Shown: positions 1 to 44,406 of the stretch, in pieces
Numbering within the stretch: position 1 is the first letter of the stretch
How the letters are laid out: each line of letters opens with the position of its first letter
Virus record (IMG/VR): IMGVR_UViG_2872678658_000002
DNA length: 45,439 bases
From: a virus
Taxonomy: Duplodnaviria > Heunggongvirae > Uroviricota > Caudoviricetes
Strand: one strand, 5' to 3'
The notes under the pieces: generated by a model
Told to the model about the DNA's origin: nothing
The model's database searches: none
What the model saw: only the letters and a program-made list of their open reading frames with translations
Translations under genes and position numbers: made by a program

Positions 1-780
1 ATGAATTTTACGTTTACTGACTCTGGATACACTGAAACAAATAAAAACAATCCCCCAATCATATTCGTTCATGGATTTTTCATGAATAATGAAATGTTCA
101 AATACCAGTTTGACGAACTAAAAGAAAAACATAGAGTTGTTTGCATTAATGTTCGGGGATTCGATGCTCTCTCCGAAAAAATTGAGCCATTCTCGCTCTA
201 TGACATCGTTGATGACATTTTAAACGTCGCAGACTCACTACAACTGGATAAGTTTATTTTAGGTGGAATGTCGATGGGCGGATATATATCATTACGATTT
301 GCCCTGTCACATTCAGAACGTTTGTCAGGGCTAATCCTTATGGCAACTCAGGCAGAGCAGGATCCGCCAGAAATCGCGTCCAGTTACATGGAGTTATGTA
401 ATGGATGGCAAGACCCAATCATAAAGGAAAATATAATCAACTCATTATTACCCGTTTTTTTCGGAAATGATATCTCTGAAGCAGAGACATGGAGACAGGT
501 ATGGCTAGGCCATAAACCTGAAAATATCATAAAGGCCATGAATGCAATGCTGGAGCGCGACGACATTTCAGAAAGAATCCAGATAATCACAATCCCCACG
601 CTGATTATTCATGGTGCCAACGATATGGGGATACCATTAGAGAAAGCAATTCAAATGCACAAAATGATTGCGCATTCTAAGCTTGAAGTCATTCCCGACG
701 CAAATCATGCTCTAAATATCACTCATGCAAAGGAAGTAAATACAGCGATAAAAAACTGGCTGCAAAACAATCATATATAA
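1..780 (+). CDS. alpha/beta-hydrolase fold protein (putative esterase/lipase), AT-rich cargo gene
   Basis: 259-aa ORF with HGFF oxyanion-like motif, GxSxG-type nucleophile motif (GMSMGG), downstream Asp (HGANDMG) and His (DANHAL); low-GC codon usage unlike neighbouring phage genes. Confidence 0.6.
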   Translation: MNFTFTDSGYTETNKNNPPIIFVHGFFMNNEMFKYQFDELKEKHRVVCINVRGFDALSEKIEPFSLYDIVDDILNVADSLQLDKFILGGMSMGGYISLRFALSHSERLSGLILMATQAEQDPPEIASSYMELCNGWQDPIIKENIINSLLPVFFGNDISEAETWRQVWLGHKPENIIKAMNAMLERDDISERIQIITIPTLIIHGANDMGIPLEKAIQMHKMIAHSKLEVIPDANHALNITHAKEVNTAIKNWLQNNHI

Positions 781-818
781 AATTAATTATAACACATATT
801 AATTTCTTAATTATATTA

Positions 819-841
819 CGCCCGTAAAACTGTAGCGGGCG
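819..841. terminator. hairpin between convergent genes (cgcccg-11 nt loop-cgggcg)
   Basis: 6-bp inverted repeat seen directly between hydrolase stop (780) and minus-strand gene stop (982); no clean U-tract. Confidence 0.3.
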
Positions 842-981
842 TATGTTGTCACTCTGGTAGTGCCAGCCTCTCAATATCAGGTGCAGTTGATGTATCAACA
901 CGGTTCAGCAACACCCGATACTTTTTCCAGGCTTCCAGCAACGGGGTTTCTTCCTCCGTTGCATATACAGCTCACCTTTTT

Positions 982-1275
982 TCACCCACGATTAACCAAC
1001 AGCCAGACCAGCAGACACGCCACCACCGGCACAGCAAAATCCATCAGGCTTGCCACATCCCAAGCACGCGGATCAAAACCGCCCCACCACGGCATATTCA
1101 TTCGCTTGCCATGCCCGAACATTTCAATCCAGCGATATTCTGCCTGGGTATGTTCACGCGCAATGAAGAACGTACAACCGGCTATCGCTCCGTAAGCCCA
1201 GTTTCCGGTAAAAAGACCAACCAGTATCTGCGCAGCCACAGCACAAAGTGCATGAAGTAAGGGGCTTATATCCAT
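982..1275 (-). CDS. hypothetical small membrane protein (tail-fiber-distal cargo)
   Basis: 97-aa ORF with two hydrophobic segments, start 12 nt after upstream gene stop, same strand as tail genes. Confidence 0.45.
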   Translation of the reverse strand: MDISPLLHALCAVAAQILVGLFTGNWAYGAIAGCTFFIAREHTQAEYRWIEMFGHGKRMNMPWWGGFDPRAWDVASLMDFAVPVVACLLVWLLVNRG

Positions 1276-1287
1276 TATTTCCTCCTT

Positions 1288-1566
1288 TCAGCTCCATTCC
1301 CGAAGCGGTGTTTCCAGCTCCACGACATAATCAGAGAATACAGAAACATCAAACAAGTCATCAAGAATGCGAATGTTGACAAAATAACCATCATTCCGGA
1401 TACAGACAGGTTCTCCCTCTTCTGTTACCCCTGTTTCTGTGTAGGTGAAACCAATTTCATCAACTAACAGTTTATTCTGGAGGTCTTCATCTTCCGCCCA
1501 GCCAAGAGATGACAGGAAGGCCTTAAACTGCAGTTTGTCATGAAACTTCAAAGTTAAATCTTTCAT
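1288..1566 (-). CDS. small acidic protein translationally coupled to side tail fiber (possible fiber chaperone/accessory)
   Basis: 92-aa ORF; ATGA start/stop overlap with the stf stop codon at 1563-1566; D/E-rich. Confidence 0.45.
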   Translation of the reverse strand: MKDLTLKFHDKLQFKAFLSSLGWAEDEDLQNKLLVDEIGFTYTETGVTEEGEPVCIRNDGYFVNIRILDDLFDVSVFSDYVVELETPLREWS

Positions 1567-3632
1567 ACGACCTCTTTTAATTGCCTGTCATTTAATTCTT
1601 TATGCCATATGCGGAAATTGCGAATATGGCCAAACAGATGTCGTTCTCCAGTATTCGTCTGCCCTCCAAATCGGATATTTTTATCAGCGGTCACGCCATT
1701 ATATTCACAATAAACTTCATTAACCGCTTTACCATTTGTCACCACATGAAAGTGACCATCAGCTTTTGCAATACATCCAAATGTGGTTTTCTCTGCAAAT
1801 ACATCTGTCGCTGCGCTATTAACATACGAGCCTGAAGGGTTTGACAGACTCATATATAACTTACCACTACCTCTGTTGACTGCTGCAATTGCTGATTGCC
1901 CGGTATTGGCTGCTGCTATATCCCACACGCGGGGTGCGGCGTTTGGTGCAATATCCCAGTTTTTATGAATCTCAAGTAAAAAAGTAAATGGTAACTTATA
2001 AAGATTATTTCTGGTGGGGATACTAACCAAATCACTGGCTCTTGTCGTTGCGCTGCCTCCTGAAATAATAAATGATGATACACACGGCCCATTCTCTACT
2101 TGTGGGGTGGCAAGATAAATATAGTCACCAGATACTGTTGCCCCACCCTTCTCAGGAGAATACTGTATCTGAGAGCCTATTTTTAACTCACCATCAATTG
2201 CCTGAATCGTTGCCTCTGCAAAAATCCAGCCCGTGGTCTTATCCTTCCTGACTCGTGCCGTAATTCTGCCGGCAGCACCACCTGTCATATTAATTTCAAG
2301 CGTTTGCGTATCAATGTACGCATCGCCAAGAAAAGTTGTTGCACTTCCGTCATATTTATCAAACCGGATTCGCAACCTTACCTGCAGTTCTGTTTTAAAG
2401 CGACATGAGGTTGTCACGTATTTATTATCGCCTGAGACATCAACTGACTTTGTTGCAGCAATTGATGCCATATTAATAGCCGAAGTTTGCCCAACCAGAG
2501 AATCGTTGCAGACAAACTTTCCATAAGTAAAACCAAAACTATCCGTCCCGGTTTCGGGCACATCCATGTTTGATGACTTCCCCCAGCTGGCTGGACTTTC
2601 CGAATTGAGCATGTAGTTCGTTCTTTGTCCCTCAATAAGCAGGCCATCACACTCAAATCGCGGCTCATTAATTTCCGCCGTTTTCAGTTCGCCAGATTTG
2701 TTGATATATGTTGCCGTTGATGCGCGACTGAAATTAACCTGTTTATCACTGGCGACCTGAACCACATCGTCACCAATAGCTATTTTTTTATAGCCCGGAG
2801 AAAAACCCGCAATCATATCCAGTGAATCGTTAAACGGTATCCACACATCAGGCAGCGGCGGCACTATATTCGCATAGGGCTCTGCAGTCACTTCCGCTGC
2901 GGCTTCTGCGCGGTCTGCCGCCTTTTCAGCTCGTGTCGCTGCCGACAGAGCCTCATCCTTTTTCTGCCCGGCCTTTGTTGCGTCTGCTGCAGCCTCCCGC
3001 GCTTTTGTGGTGGCGACTCCGGCATTTTCAGCGGCTGACTCTGCATTACGGCGGGAAGCCTCTTCACTGTCTGCGGAGGCTTCTTCTGACGCACGGGCAT
3101 TTGTCTCTGAACGTTCTGCCGCTGTTGCTGCGTTTTGTGCGGCTGTTTTTGAAGAAGCTGCCGCTTTCGCGCTGTTACCTGCATTCGTCTCTGATGTTTT
3201 CGCCGCGTTCCTGGACGATGCCGCTGCTGTTTCTGATTTCTTTGCTGCCGCTGCGCTCTGAGAGGCGGCTTCAGCGTTGCGTGCCACATCCTCCACCATT
3301 TCCTGAAAACGGCGCAATGCCTCCGGCATGACATCATCTTCCGTCATGGCACCGAGAAAATCATTCAGCGTCCCCGGACTGGAACCTTCATAGACGGTAA
3401 TGGTCCCAACATGTGATGGCTGAGAACCCTCAATCCACAGGATGACGCTGTACTGACCATACTCAACGTCCATACTGTAACGCCCGGCTTCATCAGGATT
3501 TTCAGAGGCCACCGTGTTCACCAGTACCGTGGTGCTGTTACGCTTTGCCTTCAGTTGAATAGTGCAGTTCTGTATTGGTTTTCCCGCACCATCTTTCAGC
3601 ACACCTGAGATTTTTACTGCTGCCATATCCAC
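1563..3632 (-). CDS. stf: side tail fiber protein (lambda Stf-like N-terminus, divergent C-terminal receptor-binding region)
   Basis: 689 aa; N-terminus MAAVKISGVLKDGAGKPIQNCTIQLKAKRNSTT... matches remembered lambda Stf; Ala/Ser-rich repetitive stalk. Confidence 0.85.
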   Translation of the reverse strand: MDMAAVKISGVLKDGAGKPIQNCTIQLKAKRNSTTVLVNTVASENPDEAGRYSMDVEYGQYSVILWIEGSQPSHVGTITVYEGSSPGTLNDFLGAMTEDDVMPEALRRFQEMVEDVARNAEAASQSAAAAKKSETAAASSRNAAKTSETNAGNSAKAAASSKTAAQNAATAAERSETNARASEEASADSEEASRRNAESAAENAGVATTKAREAAADATKAGQKKDEALSAATRAEKAADRAEAAAEVTAEPYANIVPPLPDVWIPFNDSLDMIAGFSPGYKKIAIGDDVVQVASDKQVNFSRASTATYINKSGELKTAEINEPRFECDGLLIEGQRTNYMLNSESPASWGKSSNMDVPETGTDSFGFTYGKFVCNDSLVGQTSAINMASIAATKSVDVSGDNKYVTTSCRFKTELQVRLRIRFDKYDGSATTFLGDAYIDTQTLEINMTGGAAGRITARVRKDKTTGWIFAEATIQAIDGELKIGSQIQYSPEKGGATVSGDYIYLATPQVENGPCVSSFIISGGSATTRASDLVSIPTRNNLYKLPFTFLLEIHKNWDIAPNAAPRVWDIAAANTGQSAIAAVNRGSGKLYMSLSNPSGSYVNSAATDVFAEKTTFGCIAKADGHFHVVTNGKAVNEVYCEYNGVTADKNIRFGGQTNTGERHLFGHIRNFRIWHKELNDRQLKEVV

Positions 3633-28047: not shown

Positions 28048-28725
28048 ATGTCCATCATTTTTAATGGACACTATCGTATGAAACACCGGACCTGGATCAC
28101 TGAAGCTTTACGTCTTCACTTTGAAGAACATTTACCCCGGGTTGTGGCCGGGCGTCGCCTGGGTGTACCAAAATCAACAGTTTGTAGTATGTTCGTGCGC
28201 TTTCGGAGAGCTGGCCTTTCGTGGCCTTTGCCCGCAGGCATGTCGGAGCAGGAACTTGATGCCTGCCTTTACGGACAATTTTCCACGGTACCAGTCGTAC
28301 GTCCTGAAAGCACCGTTATATCCGAAGCCCCCGTGGTAAAAAAACGTCCCCGGCGGCCCAACTTCCCTTATGAGTTTAAAATCGCCTTAGTGGAGCAGTC
28401 ACTGCAGCCCGGAGCCTGTGTGGCGCAGATCGCCCGGGAAAACGGAATCAACGATAACCTGCTCTTCAACTGGCGCCATCAATACCGGAAAGGTGGCCTG
28501 CTGCCTTCCGGAAAAAATATGCCGGCACTGCTTCCCGTGACGTTAACGCCGGAGCCGGATAATAAAATCCCGGCCCCCGCACAGGAACCAGAGCAGATAA
28601 ATACACCGTCCGACAGTCTGTGTTGTGAGCTGGTTCTGCCGGCCGGAACTCTCAGGCTTAAAGGTAAACTGACGCCGGCGTTATTACAGACACTTATCCG
28701 CGAAATAAAAGGGAGCAGCCACTGA
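28048..28725 (+). CDS. tnpA: IS66-family accessory protein TnpA (HTH)
   Basis: 225-aa ORF, HTH-like segments; first of three IS66-type ORFs. Confidence 0.7.
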   Translation: MSIIFNGHYRMKHRTWITEALRLHFEEHLPRVVAGRRLGVPKSTVCSMFVRFRRAGLSWPLPAGMSEQELDACLYGQFSTVPVVRPESTVISEAPVVKKRPRRPNFPYEFKIALVEQSLQPGACVAQIARENGINDNLLFNWRHQYRKGGLLPSGKNMPALLPVTLTPEPDNKIPAPAQEPEQINTPSDSLCCELVLPAGTLRLKGKLTPALLQTLIREIKGSSH

Positions 28726-29072
28726 TGATATCTCTCCCTGCAGGTTCGCGTATCTGGCTGGTTGCAGGTATCACCGATATGCGAAATGGCTTTAACGGCC
28801 TGGCATCAAAAGTTCAGAACGTCCTGAAGGATGACCCGTTCTCCGGACACCTGTTCATCTTCCGCGGACGCCGGGGTGACCAGATAAAAGTGTTGTGGGC
28901 TGACAGTGACGGACTGTGCCTCTTCACCAAACGCCTGGAGCGGGGCCGCTTCGTCTGGCCAGTCACCCGTGACGGCAAGGTGCACCTTACTCCGGCTCAG
29001 TTATCCATGCTTCTTGAAGGTATCAACTGGAAGCACCCGAAACGAACGGAACGCGCTGGAATCCGCATATAA
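28725..29072 (+). CDS. tnpB: IS66-family protein TnpB (orfB)
   Basis: 115 aa, typical IS66 orfB size and sequence, start overlapping tnpA stop. Confidence 0.85.
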   Translation: MISLPAGSRIWLVAGITDMRNGFNGLASKVQNVLKDDPFSGHLFIFRGRRGDQIKVLWADSDGLCLFTKRLERGRFVWPVTRDGKVHLTPAQLSMLLEGINWKHPKRTERAGIRI

Positions 29073-29091
29073 CCCGTTGTAAAGTGAGGAT

Positions 29092-30663
29092 ATGGACACC
29101 TCACTTGCTCATGAGAACGCCCGCCTGCGGGCACTGTTGCAGACGCAACAGGACACCATCCGCCAGATGGCTGAATACAACCGCCTGCTCTCACAGCGGG
29201 TGGCGGCTTATGCTTCCGAAATCAACCGGCTGAAGGCGCTGGTTGCGAAACTGCAACGTATGCAGTTCGGTAAAAGCTCAGAAAAACTTCGTGCAAAAAC
29301 CGAACGGCAGATACAGGAAGCACAGGAGCGAATCAGCGCACTTCAGGAAGAAATGGCGGAAACGCTGGGTGAGCAATATGACCCGGTACTGCCATCCGCC
29401 CTGCGCCAGTCTTCAGCCCGTAAACCGTTACCGGCCTCACTTCCCCGTGAAACCCGGGTTATCCGGCCGGAAGAGGAATGCTGTCCTGCCTGTGGTGGTG
29501 AACTCAGTTCTCTGGGATGTGATGTGTCAGAGCAACTGGAGCTTATCAGCAGCGCCTTTAAGGTTATCGAAACACAACGTCCGAAACAGGCCTGTTGCCG
29601 GTGCGACCATATCGTGCAGGCACCAGTACCTTCAAAACCCATTGCACGCAGTTATGCCGGAGCGGGGCTTCTGGCCCATGTTGTCACCGGGAAATATGCA
29701 GACCATCTGCCGTTATACCGCCAGTCAGAAATATACCGTCGTCAGGGAGTGGAGATGAGCCGCGCCACGCTGGGGCGCTGGACCAGTGCTGTTGCTGAAC
29801 TGCTGGAGCCGCTGTATGACGTCCTGCGCCAGTATGTGCTGATGCCCGGTAAAGTCCATGCTGATGATATCCCCGTCCCGGTCCAGGAGCCGGGCAGCGG
29901 TAAAACCCGGACAGCCCGGCTGTGGGTCTACGTCCGTGATGACCGTAACGCCGGTTCACAGATGCCCCCGGCGGTCTGGTTCGCGTACAGTCCGGACCGG
30001 AAGGGTATCCATCCTCAAAATCACCTGGCCGGTTACAGCGGTGTGCTTCAGGCCGATGCTTACGGTGGTTACCGGGCGTTATACGAATCCGGCAGAATAA
30101 CGGAAGCCGCGTGTATGGCTCATGCCCGGAGAAAAATCCACGATGTGCATGCAAGAGCGCCCACCTACATCACCACGGAAGCCCTGCAGCGTATCGGTGA
30201 ACTGTATGCCATCGAGGCAGAGGTCCGGGGCTGTTCAGCAGAACAGCGTCTGGCGGCAAGAAAAGCCAGAGCCGCGCCACTGATGCAGTCACTGTATGAC
30301 TGGATACAGCAACAGATGAAAACACTGTCGCGTCACTCAGATACGGCAAAAGCGTTCGCATACCTGCTGAAACAGTGGGATGCACTGAACGTGTACTGCA
30401 GTAATGGCTGGGTGGAAATCGACAACAACATCGCAGAGAACGCCTTACGGGGAGTGGCCGTAGGCCGGAAAAACTGGATGTTCGCGGGTTCCGACAGCGG
30501 TGGTGAACATGCGGCGGTGTTGTACTCGCTGATCGGCACATGCCGTCTGAACAATGTGGAGCCAGAAAAGTGGCTGCGTTACGTCATTGAACATATCCAG
30601 GACTGGCCGGCAAACCGGGTACGCGATCTGTTGCCCTGGAAAGTTGATCTGAGCTCTCAGTAA
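29092..30663 (+). CDS. tnpC: IS66-family transposase TnpC
   Basis: 523 aa, N-terminal coiled coil/leucine zipper, Cys-rich zinc ribbon, DDE-like core. Confidence 0.85.
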
Positions 30664-30693
30664 ATATCAATACGGTTCTGACGAGTCGCTTAC

Positions 30694-30924: not shown

Positions 30925-30999
<75 letters not shown>

Positions 31000-31002
31000 A
31001 TA

Positions 31003-31078
<76 letters not shown>

Positions 31079-31080
31079 AC

Positions 31081-31157
31081 TGGACCGCCACCGGGGACTC
31101 GAACCTCGCACACTCAACTTAAAGGGTTGACGCTCTTTCCTGATGAGCTAGTGGCGG
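31081..31157 (-). tRNA. tRNA-like gene with atypical anticodon loop CCUUUAA (anticodon UUU if canonical; C at position 33)
   Basis: foldable cloverleaf with 7-bp acceptor stem, D and T arms (T-loop UUCGAGU), abuts next tRNA with 1-nt spacer. Confidence 0.5.
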
Positions 31158-31158
31158 C

Positions 31159-31234
31159 TGGTGGCCCTTGCTGGATTTGAACCAGCGACCTGGCGATTAT
31201 GAGTCGCTCGCTCTCACCACTGAGCTAAAGGGCC
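31159..31234 (-). tRNA. tRNA-Ile2-like (anticodon CAU, ileX/ileZ type)
   Basis: 76 nt, anticodon loop ACUCAUAA; body far closer to remembered ileX than to elongator tRNA-Met. Confidence 0.75.
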
Positions 31235-31334
31235 GGGCGCAGGATAATAACGTTACGAAATCAATGTTGCAAGCATTCAAAAATCACCCTTATCTCCTCC
31301 ACTAGCGCATTCACCATGTCTATCCGAGATAAGT

Positions 31335-31428: not shown

Positions 31429-32124
31429 TCAATCTACTTTTGCAACACTTTGCTTTGAAAATGCCGCCTTTTGTTTTGAACGTGTTCTCATTACAAACAA
31501 TAAAGCCTCACTATCAAGTCGGTGAAAAATGTGTTTCATTGCAACCCAGTGACGAGTAAATGTTTTGGACCAGTTTTTAGTTGTCACTCCCGCCAGTAAT
31601 GCCAGCTCCTGGTATTCATAACCTTCCCCACCAAAAAGTTCTGCTTTTACTGCCTGCGCCGCCAGCCAGATTAATTTTTTCAGGCGTTCCTGCGTTTTCC
31701 CTGCAATTTTTCTGGTACCGGATTGAGTATTAAATTCATTCCACGCCCACTGTGTTATCGCGATCTGATATTCCCAACAAATACTCCCGCTGTAACACCA
31801 CAACAACCAGGCTTTATGATGTTCTTCAAGAGACAGAACAGCCCGCCGCCACGATGATGTCGAAAACTCAACCGGACTGACCAGAGGTATTGACGTCCCC
31901 TTCGCCAGCGATTGCTTTCCCGGGATTGGTGGATTATCCCGCGTTATCATTTTTCCAGTCACTTCATCGCGGTACCGGATTTTTTTTCGCCTGTAACGCC
32001 CTGTATCGAACATGGCATTCTCTTGCCAGGCTTCAAGCTGACCTTTTGTTGCCCCACTCAAATCAGCGGTGGCGATAATGAGCTGCTCACGCACAAACTG
32101 TAAATACTGGTTATTCATGCGCAC
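31429..32124 (-). CDS. putative late-gene antiterminator Q (QuuQ-like)
   Basis: 231 aa; position immediately upstream of terminator hairpin, tRNAs and lysis genes; resembles remembered E. coli prophage Quu proteins. Confidence 0.5.
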   Translation of the reverse strand: MRMNNQYLQFVREQLIIATADLSGATKGQLEAWQENAMFDTGRYRRKKIRYRDEVTGKMITRDNPPIPGKQSLAKGTSIPLVSPVEFSTSSWRRAVLSLEEHHKAWLLWCYSGSICWEYQIAITQWAWNEFNTQSGTRKIAGKTQERLKKLIWLAAQAVKAELFGGEGYEYQELALLAGVTTKNWSKTFTRHWVAMKHIFHRLDSEALLFVMRTRSKQKAAFSKQSVAKVD

Positions 32125-34648: not shown

Positions 34649-34804
34649 TTACTCCTCAGGTTCGTAAGCTGTGAAGACAGCGACCTCCGTCTGGCCGGTT
34701 CGGATTCGTACCTCGCAGAGGTCTTTCCTCGTTACCAGTGCCGTCACAATGACGGTTAAACAGATGACGATCAGGGCGATTAACATCGCCTTTTGCTGCT
34801 TCAT
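34649..34804 (-). CDS. hok: Hok/Gef-family membrane toxin (HokD-like)
   Basis: 51 aa MKQQKAMLIALIVICLTVIVTALVTRKDLCEVRIRTGQTEVAVFTAYEPEE; ORF has in-frame upstream extension to 34861. Confidence 0.85.
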   Translation of the reverse strand: MKQQKAMLIALIVICLTVIVTALVTRKDLCEVRIRTGQTEVAVFTAYEPEE

Positions 34805-35040
34805 AGCCTGCTTCTCCTTGCCTTTCGGCACGTAAGAGGCTAACCTAGATTTGCCGTTCATAGATTGAGCCTCAGATTAATGTTAAGCGTCTTGCAGGAC
34901 GCGTAATGTTAACTGGGGCTTTTCTCTATCTGCCTTTGGTGTTCATGCCTGAGACAGATAGCCTCAAGCACCCGCAGCCATTCTACTTAACTCCCGTTAC
35001 CTCGCCAATATAAAATCAATCAGAAAGGTGATCCATAAAA

Positions 35041-35727
35041 TCACTCCTTCTCTTCTTTTCCGTAGTGGAGTTGGCCAATTTTGATAAGAGGGCGTCCCTG
35101 AGATTTGCGGTGTAGATTGGTATCGCGCAGAGAATACACACAGCCACAATATTCCTGCTGATAGAATTTTTCGCGCTTGCTGATTTCAATCATACGGGAC
35201 GAGCCGCCCTGCTTGCGCCAGTTATAATCCCAGTACACCATACCCGGATAATGCGCAACAGCTCGCCGCCCACACTCGTTAACCTGCTGCATATTTTTCC
35301 AGCGTGAAATGCCCAGTGAACTGCTGATCACACTGAAACCATTTTCAGCAGCGTACAACGCTGTCCGCTCAAAACGCATGTCAAAACACATGGTACAACG
35401 GATCCCCCTCTCAGGCTCCCATTCCATTCCTTTGGCACGTTCAAACCAGTTGTCGGTGTCGTAATCAGCATCGATAAACGGCACGCCGTGTTGTTCAGCA
35501 AAGCGAATATTTTCATCCTTACGAATTAAATACTCTTTCTGAGGATGAATGTTCGGGTTGTAGAAAAAGATGGTGTAGTCGATTCCCGAGGCCTGAAGCG
35601 CCTCCATCACTTCACCGGAACATGGAGCACAGCAAGAGTGCAGTAGTAGTTTGTTTGCCCCGTTTGGGAGCTCCAATTTAGGCCGTTTGAAATCAGCAAT
35701 AGTCATAAATATTTTTATTGGGGTCAT
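35041..35727 (-). CDS. DUF208/QueH-like protein (putative epoxyqueuosine reductase, Fe-S)
   Basis: 228 aa with [11 protein letters not shown] motif plus CTMCF and YCGC cysteines characteristic of QueH family. Confidence 0.65.
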
Positions 35728-38244: not shown

Positions 38245-38664
38245 ATGGTTCATGAAGATAAAGCGCGTAAAGAGTTCGCCAGTAGGCTTGCGCTAGCCTG
38301 TGAAAACGCTGGTTATGAACAACATGGAAGGCAGGCAGAAATTGCCCGTCGAATGAAATTAACACCAAAAGCGGTTAGCAAATGGTTTAATGGCGAAACA
38401 ATTCCTCGCCGGGAGAAATTAAGGGAATTAGCAACACTAATAGGAACAACACCAACCTATCTTTTGGGAGAGGATACAGAAGAAAGTGGACAGGTACGTT
38501 TCTATCAGGAGTTAAATCCAAGACAAAAAATCATCATTGACCTTCTGGACGAGCTCCCTGACAGTGAGACAGATGAACTTTTAAAAACTCTTGAAGAGAA
38601 AAAACAGAAGTACAATGCAATTTACGAAGAGTTAGCACGAAAGAAAAAACAAAAAGCCTCTTAA
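38245..38664 (+). CDS. CI-like prophage repressor (HTH_XRE)
   Basis: 139 aa; HTH (GRQAEIARRMKLTPKAVSKWFNG); divergently oriented to Cro-like gene. Confidence 0.7.
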   Translation: MVHEDKARKEFASRLALACENAGYEQHGRQAEIARRMKLTPKAVSKWFNGETIPRREKLRELATLIGTTPTYLLGEDTEESGQVRFYQELNPRQKIIIDLLDELPDSETDELLKTLEEKKQKYNAIYEELARKKKQKAS

Positions 38665-38965: not shown

Positions 38966-39322
38966 GTGGGCGAAGTCAAACATCAGAATGGAAGGCGTCC
39001 AGGGATCAGCAAAGAAACAGCGATGGCGCTTTATATTGATATCAGCGCCATTGCCGGACAGGTAAGAATTATCAGAGCGGTAACTAAGCGGTATGCGCCT
39101 TTACTTCAGAAAGTCTCTGGTGAGTGCACCGAAGATATTGTCAACGATTTCGTCATCAAACTGCGAGGACTCATCTTCAGTTACAAGGTGACCACAATTT
39201 TTGCAGATGGCTCCCGCGAAACTGTCAGAGCCCTGCGGTTTAAAGGATGTGTCAAAGACTTCGCCACCACATTCTGGGCAAGAAAACTTGATTGTATTCA
39301 TAACCAATTTCCTCTCGAGTAA
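38966..39322 (+). CDS. hypothetical protein (first ORF of early-left operon), antisense-overlapping a zinc-ribbon ORF
   Basis: GTG start with AGAGGA 7 nt upstream; same strand as repressor and dicB operon. Confidence 0.35.
   Translation: MGEVKHQNGRRPGISKETAMALYIDISAIAGQVRIIRAVTKRYAPLLQKVSGECTEDIVNDFVIKLRGLIFSYKVTTIFADGSRETVRALRFKGCVKDFATTFWARKLDCIHNQFPLE
39101..39301 (-). CDS. small zinc-ribbon protein (CPECG...CKNCG)
   Basis: 66 aa from ATG 39301 with GAGAGGA Shine-Dalgarno; two CxxC pairs 24 residues apart; acidic C-terminus. Confidence 0.45.
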   Translation of the reverse strand: MNTIKFSCPECGGEVFDTSFKPQGSDSFAGAICKNCGHLVTEDESSQFDDEIVDNIFGALTRDFLK

Positions 39323-39952: not shown

Positions 39953-40010
39953 TTTCTGGTGACGTTTGGCGGTATCAGTTTTACTCCGTGACTGCTCTGC
40001 CGCCCTTTTT
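39953..40010 (+). ncRNA. dicF: DicF small RNA
   Basis: TTTCTGGTGACGTTTGGCGGTATCAGTTTTACTCCGTGACTGCTCTGCCGCCCTTTTT matches remembered DicF; lies in long ORF-free structured leader upstream of dicB. Confidence 0.85.
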
Positions 40011-40179
40011 AAAGTGAATTTTGTGATGTGGTGAATGCGGCTGAGCGCACGCGGAACAGTTAAAACCAAAAACAGTGTTATGGGTGGATTCTCTGTATCC
40101 GGCGTTAATTGTTAACTGGTTAACGTCACCTGGAGGCACCAGGCACCGCATCACAAAATTCATTGTTGAGGACGCGATA

Positions 40180-40368
40180 ATGGAAACGTTATTACCAAAC
40201 GTTAATACGTCTGAAGGTTGTTTTGAAATTGGTGTCACTATCAGTAACCCTGAATTTACTGAAGATGCCATTAACAAGAGAAAACACGAACGGGAGTTAT
40301 TAAATAAAATATGCATTGTTTCAATGCTGGCCCGTTTACGCCTGATGCAAAAAGGACGCTGGCAATGA
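40180..40368 (+). CDS. dicB: cell-division inhibitor DicB
   Basis: 62 aa METLLPNVNTSEGCFEIGVTISNPEFTEDAINKRKHERELLNKICIVSMLARLRLMQKGRWQ, near-identical to remembered DicB; GAGGA RBS. Confidence 0.85.
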   Translation: METLLPNVNTSEGCFEIGVTISNPEFTEDAINKRKHERELLNKICIVSMLARLRLMQKGRWQ

Positions 40369-40568
40369 ATACTGCTGTTGCCCTCACTCTGACTGTTTTT
40401 CTTAATACTGGCGAACCTGTTGATGTGGTTACTGGTATATATGGTTCAATGAAAGAATGTATGGCTGCCGCAGCAGAACAGAAAATTCCTGGTAACTGTT
40501 ATCCGGTCGAGAAAGTTATTCGCATGGATAATAACGAAATCCCGGCAGGATTAAAAACAGCGCCGTAA
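40365..40568 (+). CDS. YdfD-like small membrane protein
   Basis: 67 aa with N-terminal hydrophobic segment; immediately follows dicB as ydfD does in Qin. Confidence 0.55.
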   Translation: MNTAVALTLTVFLNTGEPVDVVTGIYGSMKECMAAAAEQKIPGNCYPVEKVIRMDNNEIPAGLKTAP

Positions 40569-40647
40569 TTAATATCCAGTTTCATTTTTATATGCCAGCA
40601 ATGGCAGGGATTTGTTCACCCTTAAATCTGTAATGAGGTAAAACAAA

Positions 40648-43119
40648 ATGAGTAAAGTCTTTATTTGCGCCGCCATTCCGGACGAACAGGCAATAAAGGA
40701 AGAAGGTGCAGTTGCTGTAGCCACTGCCATTGAAGCCGGTGACAAACGCCGCGCCCGTGCCAAATTTACCTGGCAATTCCTGGAGCAATATCCGGCTGCT
40801 CAGGACTGCGCTTATAAATTTCTTGTCTGCGAGGATAAAACCGGCATGCCCCGCCCTGCTATAGACTCCTGGGATACCGAATATATGCAGGAAAACCGCT
40901 GGGATGAGGAATCCGCTTCCTTTATTCCGGTCGAACCAGAATCCGATCCGATGAACGTCAATTTTGACAAGCTGTCCCTTGAAGTACAGAACGCGGTTCT
41001 GGTTAAGTTCGGTACATGTGAAAACATCACCGTTGATATGGTGATTAGTGCTCAGGAATTACTGCAGGAGGACATGGCAACATTCGACGGGCATATCGTT
41101 GAGGCATTGATGAAAATGCCTGAAGTTAATGTCATGTATTCAGAGCTTAAGCTGCTCGCCATCGGGTGGGTTAAACATAAATGTAAGCCGGGTGCAAAAT
41201 GGCCTGAGATCCAGACAGAATTACGCACCTGGAAAAAACGTCGCGAAGCCGAACGCAAAGAAACCGGGAAATACACGTCTGTTGTTGATCTTGCCCGCGC
41301 CAGAGTCAACCGGCAGCACACTGAAAACTCAGCAGGAAAAATCAACCCCGCCACTGCCGCCATTCGTCGCGAATACAAGCAGACATGGAAAACGCTGGAT
41401 GAAGAACTGGCCTACGCTCTGTGGCCTGGTGATATTAATGCCGGAAACATTGACGGCAGCATCCATCGCTGGGCAAAAAATGAAGTTATCGACAAAGATC
41501 GCGAAGACTGGAAGCGTATCTCGGCATCAATGCGCAAACAGCCTGATGCCCTTCGCTACGACCGCCAGACTATTTTTGGCCTTGTCCGTGAACGTCCGAT
41601 CGACATTCACAAAGACCCTGTGGCACTGAACAAATACATTACTGAATACCTGACTACAAAGGGCGTGTTTGAAGATGAAGGAAGAAATCAGAGCACAACT
41701 GATACTCTCTCGTCGCCAGTACCAGAAACTGATGCAGTGGAAACGGCAATTCCGGACAACGAAAAAACCGAATGCCAAGTGGAAGTCGAACCATCTGTAG
41801 AGCGTGAGGGGCCGTTCTACTTCCTCTTCACCGACAAGGATGGCGAAAAATACGGTCGCGCAAACAAACTTTCTGGTCTGGATAAGGCACTGGCTGCCGG
41901 GGCTACTGAAATCACGAAAGAAGAATATTTCGCCCGCAAAAACGGTACATACTCAGGTTCACAACAAAATACTGGTACATCTGACACGACCGCACAACCA
42001 GGGCCGGTAAAAGTTACCGCTGACGAAGTAAACAAAATTATGCAGGCAGCCAATATCAGCCAGCCTGACGCCGATGAACTGCTTGCAGTATCACGTGGTG
42101 AATTTGTTGCAGGGATTAGCGATCCGAATGATCCGAAATGGGTGAAGGGGATTGAAACCCGCGATTCTGTGAACCAGAACCAGCAAAAAACGGAACAGAA
42201 CGACCAGAAAGCGGAACAAAACAGCCCAAATACGCAACAAAACGAGCCAGAAACGAAACAACCTGAACCAGTAGTGCAACAGGAACCGGAAAAGATCTGC
42301 ACCGCCTGCGGTCAGAGCGGTTGCGGCAACTGCCCTGATTGTGGCGCGGTGATGGGCGACGCAACATACCAGGAAACATTCGATGAAGAGAATCAGGTTG
42401 AAGTTCAGGAAAATGATCCGGAGGAAATGGAAGGCGCTGAACATCCACACAAGGAGAACACTGGCGGCAATCAGCATCACGATAGCGATAATGAAACTGG
42501 CGAGGCGGCAGATCACTCAATTAAGGTGAACGGTCATCACGAAATCACATCCACCAGCAGAACGTGTGACCATCTAATGATCGACCTCGAAACCATGGGA
42601 AAAAATCCTGATGCCCCGATTATCTCAATAGGTGCAATATTTTTCGATCCGCAAACCGGAGATATGGGACCGGAATTTAGTAAGACTATCGATCTGGAAA
42701 CTGCTGGCGGAGTCATTGATCGGGACACCATTAAATGGTGGCTGAAGCAATCACGCGAAGCGCAATCTGCCATTATGACCGATGAAATCCCGTTAGATGA
42801 TGCACTGTTACAATTGCGAGAATTTATCGACGAAAACTCCGGTGAATTTTTTGTTCAGGTCTGGGGAAATGGAGCCAACTTCGACAACACGATTTTGCGC
42901 CGTTCATACGAACGGCAGGGGATCCCCTGCCCGTGGCGTTACTACAACGATCGCGATGTACGCACAATCGTTGAGCTGGGGAAAGCCATAGACTTCGATG
43001 CCAGAACGGCTATTCCATTCGAAGGTGAGCGCCATAATGCACTTGATGACGCCCGTTACCAAGCAAAATACGTTTCAGCTATCTGGCAAAAACTGATCCC
43101 GAGTCAGGCTGATTTTTAA
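40648..43119 (+). CDS. multidomain exonuclease (YdfE-like; C-terminal DnaQ-like DEDDh 3-prime-5-prime exonuclease)
   Basis: 823 aa; Q/N-rich linker, CTACGQSGCGNCPDCG zinc ribbon, C-terminal DLETMG...NGANFD...HNALDD exonuclease motifs. Confidence 0.7.
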   Translation: MSKVFICAAIPDEQAIKEEGAVAVATAIEAGDKRRARAKFTWQFLEQYPAAQDCAYKFLVCEDKTGMPRPAIDSWDTEYMQENRWDEESASFIPVEPESDPMNVNFDKLSLEVQNAVLVKFGTCENITVDMVISAQELLQEDMATFDGHIVEALMKMPEVNVMYSELKLLAIGWVKHKCKPGAKWPEIQTELRTWKKRREAERKETGKYTSVVDLARARVNRQHTENSAGKINPATAAIRREYKQTWKTLDEELAYALWPGDINAGNIDGSIHRWAKNEVIDKDREDWKRISASMRKQPDALRYDRQTIFGLVRERPIDIHKDPVALNKYITEYLTTKGVFEDEGRNQSTTDTLSSPVPETDAVETAIPDNEKTECQVEVEPSVEREGPFYFLFTDKDGEKYGRANKLSGLDKALAAGATEITKEEYFARKNGTYSGSQQNTGTSDTTAQPGPVKVTADEVNKIMQAANISQPDADELLAVSRGEFVAGISDPNDPKWVKGIETRDSVNQNQQKTEQNDQKAEQNSPNTQQNEPETKQPEPVVQQEPEKICTACGQSGCGNCPDCGAVMGDATYQETFDEENQVEVQENDPEEMEGAEHPHKENTGGNQHHDSDNETGEAADHSIKVNGHHEITSTSRTCDHLMIDLETMGKNPDAPIISIGAIFFDPQTGDMGPEFSKTIDLETAGGVIDRDTIKWWLKQSREAQSAIMTDEIPLDDALLQLREFIDENSGEFFVQVWGNGANFDNTILRRSYERQGIPCPWRYYNDRDVRTIVELGKAIDFDARTAIPFEGERHNALDDARYQAKYVSAIWQKLIPSQADF

Positions 43120-43177: not shown

Positions 43178-43381
43178 ATGAGCAGCTTATTTTTAACCGA
43201 AGATGAATTGCTAATATTAACGGGCTGCAAATATGCAAGCCACCAGCGAAAATGGTTAATGGAAAACGGGCTTCCGTTCTATACCAATCGTAGTGGCAAA
43301 CCGATTGTCAGCCGGGATCTATTTACCTGCAATAAAACTTTACCACCACGCGAGGTAGAGCCGAATTTTGGTGCGATCTGA
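43178..43381 (+). CDS. xis: putative excisionase
   Basis: 67-aa ORF whose stop overlaps the integrase start (TGATG). Confidence 0.5.
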   Translation: MSSLFLTEDELLILTGCKYASHQRKWLMENGLPFYTNRSGKPIVSRDLFTCNKTLPPREVEPNFGAI

Positions 43382-44406
43382 TGGGAAGACGAAGGAAAAA
43401 TCCTGAACACGAAAAATTACCTCCAAATGTATACCCAAATAAATATAGTTATGTATGGAAACCAACATCCAGAGAATCTGTAACACTAACCGCCATCAAG
43501 GATGGTTTAGCTGCTTTATGGAAAAAGTATGAGGAAACTGTAAATAATCGCGATCGTGCAATGACATTCGGTCGCTTGTGGGAAAAATTCCTCGCCAGCG
43601 CCTATTACAGTGACCTCAGTCCAAGAACACAAAAAGATTATCTGCAACATCAAAAAAAGTTGCTTGCCGTATTCGGTAAGGTGCCGGCAGATTCCATAAA
43701 ACCAGAACACATCCGTCGATACATGGACAAGAGAGGGGAACAGAGTAAAACGCAAGCCAACCATGAAAAAAGCAGTATGTCCCGCGTTTACAGTTGGGGG
43801 TATGAGCGAGGGTACGTGAAAGCTAACCCATGTGCAGGTGTAAGTAAATTCAAGGCCAAAAACCGCGAACGATATGTAACCGACAAAGAATACCAGGCAG
43901 TATTAAGCGTTGCACCTCTTCCTGTTTTTATCGCAATGGAAATTGCCTATCTGTGTGCAGCGAGGGTTTCCGATGTGTTATCGCTGAAATGGGAGCAGAT
44001 TGGAAACGACGGGATCTTTATCCAGCAAGGGAAAACAGGAAAAAAACAGATAAAAGCATGGAGTCCACGATTACAGGCGGCGATCGAAAAAGCAAAACAG
44101 TTACCAACATCCGCCTATGTAATCAGCAATCAATACGGCAACCGATATATGTACAAAGGCTTTAACGAAATGTGGGTAGATGCAAGAAATCGTGCTGGAA
44201 AAATTTCAGGTATTTTAACCGACTTCACCTTTCATGATCTGAAGGCGAAAGGAATTTCAGACTATGAAGGAAGCAGCCGGGATAAGCAACTTTTCTCTGG
44301 TCACAAAACCGAAGGGCAAGTGCTAATCTATGACAGGAAGGTTAAAGTTTCACCAACACTTGATGTCCCGTTACCTGAAAATATTCCAAGAAAATATTCC
44401 AAGTAA
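43381..44406 (+). CDS. int: tyrosine integrase
   Basis: 341 aa; C-terminal catalytic region (R...HDLK...VLIYDRK with Tyr); adjacent to tRNA 3-prime end. Confidence 0.85.
   Translation: MGRRRKNPEHEKLPPNVYPNKYSYVWKPTSRESVTLTAIKDGLAALWKKYEETVNNRDRAMTFGRLWEKFLASAYYSDLSPRTQKDYLQHQKKLLAVFGKVPADSIKPEHIRRYMDKRGEQSKTQANHEKSSMSRVYSWGYERGYVKANPCAGVSKFKAKNRERYVTDKEYQAVLSVAPLPVFIAMEIAYLCAARVSDVLSLKWEQIGNDGIFIQQGKTGKKQIKAWSPRLQAAIEKAKQLPTSAYVISNQYGNRYMYKGFNEMWVDARNRAGKISGILTDFTFHDLKAKGISDYEGSSRDKQLFSGHKTEGQVLIYDRKVKVSPTLDVPLPENIPRKYSK

What the first reader, a model, noticed from the sequence alone, without database searches (positions are those of the whole stretch)
40648..43119. 823-aa multidomain exonuclease in the recombination position without an annealase partner
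The protein combines a long N-terminal region of unknown function, a Q/N/E-rich low-complexity linker, a Cys4 zinc ribbon and a C-terminal DEDDh exonuclease. No Bet/RecT/Erf-like gene is evident between the repressor and int. In K-12 the homologous ydfE is disrupted, so this is a chance to define the intact protein.
Basis: partly seen in the sequence, partly recalled or inferred. Interest (0 to 1): 0.45.

Follow-up and report, generated by a model that had tools for sequence, protein, structure and literature searches.

The report
RecE-like prophage protein with swapped exonuclease
This is an intact copy of a very common but uncharacterised E. coli prophage gene: it has the carrier region of the recombination nuclease RecE, but its cutting domain is replaced by a T4 DexA-type 3'-to-5' exonuclease and it has no strand-annealing partner, so it is probably not a classical phage recombinase.

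Summary
The ORF at 40648-43119(+) encodes 823 aa. The C-terminal domain (aa 642-813) is a Pfam Rv2179c-like DEDDh exonuclease with all five catalytic residues. A Q/N/E-rich linker and a CxxC...CxxC cluster lie upstream of it. No annealase gene lies between the repressor and int.

- aa 279-625, including the Cys cluster, are homologous to Rac RecE residues 294-591. The gene sits where recE-recT sit in Rac.
- The N-terminal domain (aa 1-205) recurs on relatives that carry four different C-terminal heads: DEDDh, RecE-type PD-(D/E)XK, a possible Rad52-like module, and an unknown one. The one PD-(D/E)XK-headed example checked is followed by recT. The DEDDh-headed form was not in 80 of 80 related loci.
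- The only solved-structure relative by sequence is T4 DexA, a DNA exonuclease.

The gene is present at 80% coverage or more in 3531 of 5426 complete E. coli genomes. Its folded domains are under purifying selection.

Best reading: a stand-alone 3'-to-5' DNA-end exonuclease on a RecE-type carrier, made from the early-left operon. Its biological role is unproven; the candidates are 3'-end trimming in phage DNA transactions or exclusion of other phages. I rate it a new variant of a known kind, of moderate interest.

The parts
40635..40638 (+). GAGG ribosome-binding site, 9 nt before the ATG
   Evidence: Read directly from the sequence.
40648..43119 (+). Whole gene, 823 codons plus stop; the intact homologue of K-12 ydfE.
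   Evidence: ORF list. 100% identical to the RefSeq CDS WP_021522781.1 'exonuclease' of E. coli APEC IMT5155. Full-length match to PHROG 2082.
40648..41262 (+). N-terminal domain, aa 1-205 (YdfE-type): an alpha/beta subdomain followed by a helical subdomain. Fold unassigned.
41263..41364 (+). Basic linker, aa 206-239
   Evidence: pLDDT 45-74. dN/dS 0.81.
41365..41667 (+). Helical middle domain, aa 240-340, homologous to RecE residues of about 294-350.
   Evidence: pLDDT 94-98. BLASTP match to RecE. dN/dS 0.20.
41668..41802 (+). Acidic disordered linker, aa 341-385
   Evidence: pLDDT 35-58. dN/dS 0.62.
41803..41943 (+). Small beta-hairpin/helix domain, aa 386-432
   Evidence: pLDDT of about 95. 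dN/dS 0.085, the lowest in the protein. Shared with relatives P0184, P0194 and P0125.
42013..42162 (+). Conserved RecE-like segment, aa 456-505 (SRGEFVxGISDPNDPKWVKGI)
   Evidence: Near-identical to RecE 433-490. Matches PHROG 412 'exonuclease VIII'. pLDDT 57-85. dN/dS 0.13.
42163..42291 (+). Q/N/E-rich low-complexity linker, aa 506-548
   Evidence: Composition. pLDDT 30-38.
42292..42372 (+). Putative Cys4 zinc ribbon, aa 549-575 (C551, C554, C562, C565), shared with RecE.
   Evidence: Alignment to RecE CNACGQTGGDNCPDCG. The four Cys are conserved in 71-72 of 72 alleles. dN/dS 0.14. This stretch of DNA is 84.6% identical to recE (H24). The fold itself is not confidently modelled.
42373..42567 (+). 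Acidic/His-rich disordered linker, aa 576-640. Homology to RecE ends at about aa 625, which is the nuclease-swap junction.
   Evidence: BLASTP to RecE stops at aa 625 of this protein and 591 of RecE. pLDDT 30-35. dN/dS 0.81.
42568..43116 (+). DEDDh 3'-5' exonuclease domain, aa 641-823, of the DexA / Rv2179c-like family. Catalytic residues are D646, E648, D746, H796 and D801.
   Evidence: Pfam PF16473, E 1.4e-67. PDB T4 DexA 8KEL, E 6e-8, is the only significant solved relative by sequence. Alignment with DexA. Catalytic residues invariant and dN/dS 0.16.
39954..40568 (+). Upstream genes on the same strand, probably the same early-left transcription unit: DicF sRNA (39954-40005), dicB (40180-40368) and a ydfD-like DUF1482 gene (40365-40568).
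   Evidence: Rfam DicF 76.7 bits. Pfam DicB and DUF1482. RefSeq annotation. No convincing promoter or terminator between them and the exonuclease gene.
43178..44406 (+). Downstream genes: excisionase-like DUF4224 (43178-43381) and a tyrosine integrase (43381-44406, annotated as frameshifted). The prophage ends at tRNA-Ser.
   Evidence: Pfam and PHROG matches. RefSeq annotation. tRNA.

Best explanation
The gene encodes a functional, modular DNA-end-processing enzyme of a lambdoid prophage.

A RecE-type 'carrier' occupies the N-terminal 640 aa. It consists of an N-terminal domain, a helical middle domain, a small beta/alpha domain, a conserved RecE-like segment and a Cys4 zinc ribbon, strung on disordered linkers. 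This carrier presents a C-terminal DexA-type DEDDh nuclease.

The nuclease removes nucleotides from 3' ends by two-metal-ion hydrolysis. This polarity is opposite to that of RecE and lambda Exo. The protein is made with DicF, DicB and YdfD from the early-left operon when the prophage is derepressed or the phage infects.

It has the wrong polarity to make 3' tails and has no annealase. It is therefore not a two-component (SynExo) recombinase. It acts alone on linear DNA ends or 3' tails.

The most likely role is trimming or removing 3' ends during phage DNA replication, repair or recombination with host functions, as T4 DexA does in double-strand-break repair (intron homing).

Shown here: the architecture, the homologies, the catalytic residues, selection on each domain, the genomic position, and the absence of a partner. 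Inferred: DNA as substrate, the polarity, the time of expression, and the biological role.
For: **Domain identity and catalytic residues.** Pfam PF16473 matches with E 1.4e-67. D646, E648, D746, H796 and D801 align to the DexA catalytic residues (with residue roles from PMC12153337). They are invariant in 72 alleles.

**DNA rather than RNA.** T4 DexA (PDB 8KEL, 'Exodeoxyribonuclease') is the only significant solved relative by sequence, E 6e-8. The family's eponymous RNase is not detected even at E <= 10.

**RecE relationship.**
- aa 279-625 match RecE 294-591, E 2e-62.
- The DNA at nt 1572-1867 of the gene is 84.6% identical to recE.
- The flanks are collinear with the Rac prophage, including identical ydaS-like and racR-like regulator proteins.

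**Clean head swap.** The 813-aa protein of phage vB_EcoS-813R8 matches RecE 50-591 at 58% identity and carries the DEDDh head. It is followed by xis-int with no recT.

**The partner tracks the head, not the carrier.**
- PD-(D/E)XK heads are followed by RecT in Rac and in L094, which has the YdfE-type N-domain (RecT E 9.4e-30).
- DEDDh heads are followed only by xis-int in the window, in mEp460_ev081 and in 80 of 80 IMG/VR loci. No RecT or Rad52-like hit was found by phmmer. The large same-strand ORFs are repressors, Rha, an integrase fragment, NleG or unassigned.

**The gene is functional.**
- 77 of the 80 IMG/VR loci keep an intact 823-codon ORF.
- dN/dS is 0.085-0.20 in every predicted folded domain and 0.6-0.8 in the predicted disordered linkers.
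- 3531 of 5426 complete E. coli genomes hold a copy with 80% coverage or more.
- A sequenced phage genome, mEp460_ev081, carries it at 92% identity.

**Precedent for a recombination-related role.** DexA's 3'-5' activity contributes to intron homing (PMC12153337 Introduction).
Against: - No biochemical or genetic test of this protein was found in the literature searched.
- The Pfam family is named after an exoribonuclease, and NCBI annotates many copies as '3'-5' exoribonuclease'. An RNA substrate is therefore not excluded.
- A 3'-5' exonuclease makes 5' overhangs, which are not normal substrates for RecA or annealases. A positive role in recombination is thus not obvious.
- An E. coli stand-alone DexA homologue (EcD) has been reported to act in anti-phage defence instead (PMC12153337).
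- Co-transcription with dicB is inferred from gene order and the lack of predicted signals. It was not measured.
Confidence: 0.5

Rival explanations
1. Inter-phage exclusion or defence. The DEDDh head degrades the DNA of superinfecting phages, possibly modified DNA as in the reported EcD/'HREX' mechanism, or their recombinogenic 3' tails. The carrier would bring the head to incoming DNA ends. The gene would then benefit the lysogen, like its neighbour dicB.
For: - A stand-alone E. coli DexA homologue, EcD, digested T4 DNA in vitro and protected cells from T4 when plasmid-borne (PMC12153337).
- That paper finds DexA homologues most prevalent in Escherichia and absent from K-12. This fits the distribution of this gene and the truncation of ydfE.
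- The gene lies next to dicB. One paper title and abstract listed report that DicB protects against phage infection.
- Early-left regions of lambdoid prophages often carry exclusion genes, for example sieB in the Rac-like locus.
- The gene is kept intact and under purifying selection in many prophages.
- W152 of DexA, one of two residues implicated in 5hmC recognition, is an aromatic Tyr here, Y766.
Against: - EcD is a different gene. Its primers encode MIDTET... and a different 3' end, and I could not retrieve it.
- DexA D169, the second 5hmC residue, aligns to Ala. DexA D90, which is lost in EcD, is retained here as D718. The EcD signature is therefore not met.
- PADLOC gives only a generic, weak DEDDh hit, E 1.6e-5.
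- The gene sits in an operon that is expected to be repressed in lysogens, by analogy with dicBp in Qin (abstract of 10.1101/2023.04.14.536235, listed).
- The carrier is shared with bona fide recombination proteins.
Confidence: 0.25
2. RNA exonuclease. The head is an Rv2179c-type 3'-5' exoribonuclease that trims or degrades host or phage RNA, for example products of the heavily processed dicBF transcript.
For: - The Pfam family name and the NCBI product names say exoribonuclease.
- The DicF sRNA is encoded about 650 nt upstream, probably in the same transcription unit.
Against: - The only solved relative detectable by sequence is the DNA exonuclease DexA, and no RNase is found at E <= 10.
- The head is interchangeable with a DNA exonuclease, and probably an annealase, on the same carrier.
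- The carrier is RecE-like.
Confidence: 0.1
3. Hidden recombinase. The protein does work in single-strand-annealing recombination. Either the N-terminal region itself provides annealing, or an annealase is supplied in trans by one of the other prophages that E. coli usually carries.
For: - It occupies the position of recE-recT.
- E. coli genomes often hold several lambdoid prophages; this gene alone has a median of 2 and up to 10 matching places per genome.
- Relatives fuse the same N-terminal module to a possible Rad52-like domain.
Against: - The N-terminal 640 aa have no match to any annealase family in Pfam, PHROGs, PDB or BFVD.
- The same N-terminal module occurs together with a separate RecT in L094, so it is not itself the annealase.
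- DEDD nucleases have the wrong polarity to generate the 3' tails that annealases load on. This rests on established knowledge of the family.
- IMT5155 has a single copy of the gene (H1) and no annealase is annotated in this prophage.
Confidence: 0.07
4. Decaying mosaic relic. The protein is a non-functional by-product of illegitimate recombination between recE and a small phage DEDDh gene, carried passively by cryptic prophages.
For: - The gene is mosaic.
- K-12 carries only a fragment.
- The int and Q genes of this prophage are annotated as frameshifted.
Against: - dN/dS is 0.09-0.20 in all folded domains, against 0.6-0.8 in the linkers.
- The catalytic residues and the zinc-binding Cys are invariant or nearly so in 72 alleles.
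- 77 of 80 loci keep an intact ORF.
- The gene is present in a sequenced phage genome.
Confidence: 0.03

Closest known systems
RecE (exodeoxyribonuclease VIII) of the Rac prophage
   Same: - Same position in a collinear early-left operon, upstream of xis-int.
- Similar size: 823 aa against 866 aa.
- Homologous central region, with this protein's aa 279-625 matching RecE 294-591, about 85% identical from aa 466. It includes the Cys4 ribbon and the acidic linker.
- The N-terminal two thirds have no known function in either protein (PMC11611040).
   Different: - The catalytic head is DEDDh (3'-5') instead of PD-(D/E)XK (5'-3'); PF12684 is absent.
- The N-terminal domain is of the YdfE type, not PF06630.
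- There is no recT downstream.
- The score on the NCBIfam RecE equivalog model is 275 bits against a cutoff of 1269.
T4 DexA (exonuclease A; PDB 8KEL/8KEN) and its reported E. coli homologue EcD ('HREX')
   Same: - The head domain is homologous: 27% identity, E 6e-8.
- All five catalytic residues align.
- DexA W152 is replaced by an aromatic Tyr.
   Different: - DexA and EcD are stand-alone proteins; DexA has 227 aa. Here the domain is the C-terminal quarter of an 823-aa protein.
- Two DexA surface insertions are absent.
- DexA D169 aligns to Ala, and DexA D90 (Ala in EcD) is retained as Asp.
- EcD is a different gene.
Stand-alone ~190-aa PF16473 proteins in the early regions of P22-like and lambdoid phages (e.g. 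Escherichia phage 1720a-02, AGR48394.1)
   Same: About 60% identical to aa 641-821 and in the same Pfam family. This is a plausible donor of the head domain.
   Different: No carrier region. In 1720a-02 the gene lies among ea-type accessory genes.
The 813-aa 'exodeoxyribonuclease VIII' of phage vB_EcoS-813R8 (URE76718.1)
   Same: Same DEDDh head, same linker and zinc ribbon, and same dicB-ydfD-exo-xis-int context. 69% identical over aa 245-823.
   Different: Its N-terminal domain is the RecE type (PF06630, E 1.5e-35), and it matches RecE 50-591 at 58% identity.
K-12 YdfE (Qin prophage)
   Same: Homologous to the first 767 nt (about 256 codons), at 87% DNA identity, in the same dicB-ydfD context.
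   Different: Truncated by an IS2 remnant. It lacks the middle domain, the zinc ribbon and the nuclease, and is annotated as a pseudogene.
PHROG 2489 'exonuclease' proteins (e.g. Pectobacterium phage ZF40 gp07)
   Same: They share the YdfE-type N-domain, the middle domain and the small domain (window aa ~3-450), and the same position between repressor and xis-int.
   Different: - The C-terminal head is PHROG 7838. It gives weak but repeated Pfam Rad52_Rad22 hits (6 of 9 members, best E 6.6e-4). It is probably an annealase and not an exonuclease.
- These genes are followed by a Sipho_Gp157 gene.
- They have no zinc ribbon.

Membership tests
DEDDh (DnaQ-like) 3'-5' exonucleases / Pfam PF16473 Rv2179c-like | Profile match above the curated threshold | tested here: met
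   227.2 bits against a cutoff of 27, covering aa 642-813 and profile positions 2-177 of 177.
DEDDh (DnaQ-like) 3'-5' exonucleases / Pfam PF16473 Rv2179c-like | Exo I motif D-x-E, Exo II Asp, and Exo III H-x4-D | tested here: met
   D646/E648, D746 and H796/D801 align to DexA D7/E9, D119 and H186/D191. They are invariant in 72 alleles.
DEDDh (DnaQ-like) 3'-5' exonucleases / Pfam PF16473 Rv2179c-like | Metal-dependent 3'-5' exonuclease activity, and the substrate (DNA or RNA) | not testable with these tools
   Needs an enzyme assay. Sequence proximity favours DNA, since DexA is the only PDB hit.
T4 DexA / EcD 'HREX' 5hmC-recognising exonucleases (PMC12153337) | Homology to DexA with a conserved active site | tested here: met
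   E 6.3e-8 to 8KEL; alignment.
T4 DexA / EcD 'HREX' 5hmC-recognising exonucleases (PMC12153337) | 5hmC-recognition residues W152 and D169 | tested here: inconclusive
   W152 aligns to Y766, which is Tyr in 69 of 72 alleles. D169 aligns to Ala, in a gapped and poorly conserved stretch with Asp residues nearby.
T4 DexA / EcD 'HREX' 5hmC-recognising exonucleases (PMC12153337) | EcD-type loss of the tetramer residue (DexA D90 replaced by Ala) | tested here: not met
   The aligned residue is Asp, D718.
T4 DexA / EcD 'HREX' 5hmC-recognising exonucleases (PMC12153337) | Protection against T-even phage | not testable with these tools
   Needs plaque or growth assays.
RecE / exodeoxyribonuclease VIII (NCBIfam NF007259 equivalog) | Full-length match above the curated cutoff | tested here: not met
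   274.9 bits against a cutoff of 1269. Only aa 219-625 match.
RecE / exodeoxyribonuclease VIII (NCBIfam NF007259 equivalog) | C-terminal PD-(D/E)XK nuclease domain (PF12684) | tested here: not met
   Absent from this protein. Present in RecE at aa 615-850.
RecE / exodeoxyribonuclease VIII (NCBIfam NF007259 equivalog) | N-terminal PF06630 domain | tested here: not met
   No Pfam hit in aa 1-642. hhalign of the N-domain family against RecE aa 1-250 gives a probability of 0.4%.
RecE / exodeoxyribonuclease VIII (NCBIfam NF007259 equivalog) | Central region and Cys4 ribbon | tested here: met
   aa 279-625 match RecE 294-591, E 2e-62.
Two-component phage recombinases (SynExo: exonuclease plus annealase) | Adjacent single-strand annealing protein gene | tested here: not met
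   None in the window, in mEp460_ev081 or 813R8, or in 80 IMG/VR loci. The positive control L094 does have RecT.
Two-component phage recombinases (SynExo: exonuclease plus annealase) | 5'-3' dsDNA exonuclease that generates 3' tails | not testable with these tools
   By family knowledge DEDD nucleases are 3'-5'. The polarity was not measured.

The most novel reading that the evidence does not exclude
The N-terminal ~500 aa shared by RecE, by this protein and by their relatives could be a portable targeting module. It would dock interchangeable DNA-processing heads (5'-3' exonuclease, 3'-5' exonuclease, Rad52-like annealase, and one unknown head) onto a single cellular or DNA target, such as a double-strand end, the replisome, SSB or RecBCD. 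The DEDDh-headed version would then be a specialised weapon or guard. It would erase 3' tails at that site, either to block recombination-dependent replication of competing phages or to shield phage ends. That would give the long-unexplained RecE N-terminus a function.
Probability: 0.15. Interest if true: 0.7.

Novelty: new variant of a known kind. Interest (0 to 1): 0.42.

Why it matters
A near-full-length copy of this gene is present in about two thirds of complete E. coli genomes, often several times, yet it has no assigned function. K-12, where most phage genetics was done, carries only a stump. That probably explains the neglect.

Natural head-swapped chimeras exist on one carrier: RecE carrier with DEDDh, and YdfE-type carrier with PD-(D/E)XK plus RecT. 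They offer a ready-made experiment for two open questions:
- What does the large N-terminal part of RecE do? It matters for linear-linear recombineering.
- What is a 3'-5' exonuclease doing in the recombination slot of a temperate phage?

If the defence reading is right, the gene would also be among the most widespread anti-phage functions in E. coli.

Full report
**1. Where we are**

The window is 100% identical to E. coli APEC IMT5155 (NZ_CP005930.1) and spans the record's origin. It covers a lambdoid prophage. sitABCD abuts the tail-fibre end, and the int end lies at a tRNA-Ser next to mtfA.

The finding's ORF, 40648-43119(+), is real. It has an ATG start, a GAGG 9 nt upstream and 823 codons. 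RefSeq annotates it simply as 'exonuclease'.

**2. The observation**

- **C-terminal domain.** The C-terminal quarter is an unambiguous DEDDh nuclease. Pfam PF16473 (Rv2179c-like) matches with E 1.4e-67 over aa 642-813.
- **Catalytic residues.** D646, E648, D746, H796 and D801 align with T4 DexA D7, E9, D119, H186 and D191. The roles of those DexA residues come from PMC12153337.
- **Linker and cysteines.** aa 506-548 is Q/N/E-rich. The cysteine cluster is CxxC-x7-CxxC. A fifth Cys, C559, is peculiar to this allele, being Gly in 68 of 72 alleles.
- **No annealase.** Between the HTH regulator at 38245 and int at 43381, every other ORF is under 140 aa. They are an ECs_2282-type zinc protein, YdfC, DicB, a DUF1482/YdfD-like protein and a DUF4224 excisionase, and the DicF sRNA lies among them. 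None is an annealase, and none is annotated elsewhere in the prophage.
- **K-12 ydfE.** It is the first 767 nt of this gene fused to an IS2 remnant.

**3. What the N-terminal three quarters are**

BLASTP against Rac RecE, taken from a Rac-like prophage in strain 1919D3, aligns aa 279-625 with RecE 294-591 at E 2e-62. Identity is about 85% from aa 466 onward, through the Cys cluster and the acidic linker. At the DNA level, nt 1572-1867 of the gene are 84.6% identical to recE (H24).

Homology stops at aa ~625 of this protein and ~591 of RecE. That is just upstream of the RecE nuclease domain (Pfam DUF3799 at aa 615-850; the review PMC11611040 gives residues 564-866). The RecE equivalog model scores only 275 bits against a cutoff of 1269, so the protein is not a RecE.

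The flanks are collinear with the Rac prophage. Both loci have the same YdaT-family toxin gene and identical ydaS-like (WP_001072337.1) and racR-like (WP_000233320.1) regulator proteins. Where Rac has kilR-ydaE-racC-recE-recT-ralR-rcbA-xisR-intR, this prophage has dicF-dicB-ydfD-exo-xis-int.

**4. Anatomy**

An AlphaFold2 model of aa 1-640, built with 49 sequences, gives beads on a string. The confident domains are:

- aa 1-205: an alpha/beta subdomain followed by a helical one;
- aa 240-340: helical;
- aa 386-432: two hairpins plus helices;
- aa 456-500: a weaker helical segment.

Everything else in aa 1-640 has low confidence, including the zinc ribbon.

An independent check agrees with the model. 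In 72 distinct 823-codon alleles from 77 loci plus the window, dN/dS is 0.085-0.20 in each modelled domain, in the ribbon and in the DEDDh head. It is 0.6-0.8 in the three linkers. The protein is therefore a maintained, functional, multidomain product, not a relic.

**5. A combinatorial family**

The N-terminal 280 aa have only 115 relatives among 1.84 billion representative proteins. Of the 46 long relatives (450 aa or more), all share the N-domain and most also share the middle domain. They carry different C-terminal heads:

| Head type | Number of the 46 |
|---|---|
| PHROG 7838 type (possible Rad52-like) | 22 |
| Unknown head (P0125 type, PHROG 26058) | 12 |
| RecE-type PD-(D/E)XK (PF12684) | 5 |
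| DEDDh | 4 |
| None detected | 3 |

The PHROG 7838 head is labelled 'exonuclease'. Yet it gives weak, repeated Pfam Rad52_Rad22 hits (6 of 9 members, best E 6.6e-4, 20.1 bits against a cutoff of 20.3). It also has a KKSLTDAxKKALSxLGF helix that, from my memory of the Rad52 family, resembles that family's signature. Structure-based confirmation failed, so this stays tentative.

Conversely, the 813-aa protein of phage vB_EcoS-813R8 matches RecE 50-591 at 58% identity, including the PF06630 N-domain, and carries the DEDDh head.

All four combinations of {YdfE-type or RecE-type N-domain} and {PD-(D/E)XK or DEDDh head} therefore exist. The DEDDh head also occurs alone as ~190-aa proteins in other temperate phages, about 60% identical. 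That is a plausible donor.

**6. The partner follows the head**

- **PD-(D/E)XK heads** are followed by RecT. This holds for both architectures checked: Rac and L094, which has the YdfE-type N-domain (953 aa, RecT E 9.4e-30).
- **PHROG 7838 heads** are followed by a Sipho_Gp157 gene, in ZF40 and in L095.
- **DEDDh heads** are followed directly by xis-int. This holds in the window, in mEp460_ev081, in 813R8 and in 80 of 80 IMG/VR loci.
  - In those 80 loci, phmmer with RecT and the Rad52-like heads finds nothing.
  - The largest same-strand ORFs are CI-type repressors, Rha/Ash, an integrase fragment, NleG or unassigned.
  - I did not search with Bet or Erf sequences directly. Ten of the larger same-strand ORFs (190 aa or more) around the gene were scanned with Pfam and none was an annealase.

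**7. Mechanism**

*Shown:*
- a DexA-type DEDDh active site;
- a RecE-type carrier;
- a position in the early-left gene string, with no convincing internal promoter or terminator;
- no partner gene.

*From established knowledge:* DEDD nucleases hydrolyse from the 3' end with two metal ions. RecE and lambda Exo make 3' tails for their annealases.

*Inferred:* the protein digests 3' ends of linear DNA on its own and cannot be a SynExo recombinase.

DNA is the more likely substrate. DexA is the only solved relative detectable by sequence (E 6e-8), and no RNase appears even at E <= 10. The head is also interchangeable with DNA-processing heads.

For the biological role I favour 3'-end trimming or removal during phage DNA transactions in lytic growth. 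The precedent is DexA's contribution to intron homing (PMC12153337).

The main rival is exclusion of other phages. Plasmid-borne EcD, a stand-alone E. coli DexA homologue, protected cells from T4, and the authors attributed this to selective digestion of hmC-DNA. However, the EcD signature is not reproduced here: DexA D90 is retained, and D169 aligns to Ala. EcD is also a different gene.

The RNase, hidden-recombinase and relic readings are weaker, for the reasons given under the rival explanations.

**8. Known or new**

The gene family is abundant. It matches in 4799 of 5426 complete E. coli genomes, and 3531 have a copy at 80% coverage or more, with up to 10 matching places per genome. It is catalogued as PHROG 2082 and under the NCBI product name 'exonuclease'. 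Precomputed annotations also list two Pfam entries, PF27430 and PF27432, on the N-terminal part. I could not look these up.

I found no experimental work on it. In the papers I could search, I also found no description of the swap of a DEDDh head onto a RecE carrier, or of the rule that the partner follows the head.

I therefore rate it a new variant of a known kind, of moderate interest. The anatomy is clear, the function is open, and nature has supplied the chimeras needed to test it.

Noticed in passing
window 39954-40005 (+): DicF sRNA gene (Rfam RF00039, 76.7 bits, full length). It lies about 650 nt upstream of the exonuclease gene, on the same strand, with dicB and a ydfD-like gene in between. 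The exonuclease is therefore the distal gene of a dicBF-type operon.
   Followed up: partly
relatives P0128, P0130, P0131, P0139, P0161, P0175, P0191, P0217, P0221; L010:4001-6166 (Pectobacterium phage ZF40 gp07): PHROG 2489/7838 proteins are annotated 'exonuclease'. Their C-terminal ~250 aa nevertheless give repeated weak Pfam Rad52_Rad22 hits (6 of 9 members, best E 6.6e-4) and a predicted helix / three-strand / helix core. They may be annealases mislabelled as exonucleases. Foldseek and a PDB profile search did not confirm this.
   Followed up: partly
L010:6163-6678 and L095:6484-6930: A Sipho_Gp157-family gene (annotated 'Mu Gam-like end protection' in ZF40) directly follows the putative annealase-headed relatives. 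This suggests a conserved two-gene module.
   Followed up: no
relatives P0125, P0194, P0203, P0206, P0212, P0216, P0218, P0227 (C-terminal ~200-250 aa): A fourth C-terminal head type (PHROG 26058, unknown function, no Pfam hit) sits on the same N-terminal carrier. It occurs in 12 of the 46 long representative proteins.
   Followed up: no
window 43381-44406 (+) and about 31430-32118 (-): RefSeq annotates both the integrase and the Q antiterminator of this prophage as frameshifted. The prophage may therefore be unable to excise or to express late genes, even though the exonuclease gene is intact.
   Followed up: no
window about 28049-30664 and 30926-31235: An IS66 element (tnpA/tnpB/tnpC) is inserted next to the holin gene. 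A cluster of four tRNA genes (Gly, Thr, Lys, Ile) lies between it and Q.
   Followed up: no
window about 34649-35706 (-): The prophage carries hokD and a QueH (epoxyqueuosine reductase) gene in its nin-like region.
   Followed up: no
window 1-1778 (+): sitB (partial), sitC and sitD, iron/manganese transporter genes, directly abut the tail-fibre end of the prophage. I did not determine whether they are phage cargo or flanking chromosome.
   Followed up: no
window 39101-39301 (-): A small ECs_2282-family protein with two CxxC pairs is encoded on the opposite strand inside the early-left region. Its function is unknown.
   Followed up: no
proteins P0001-P0120: Precomputed annotations list Pfam PF27430.1 and PF27432.1 on the N-terminal part of this protein family. 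These accessions are newer than the local Pfam copy and could not be looked up, so curators may already have defined these domains.
   Followed up: no
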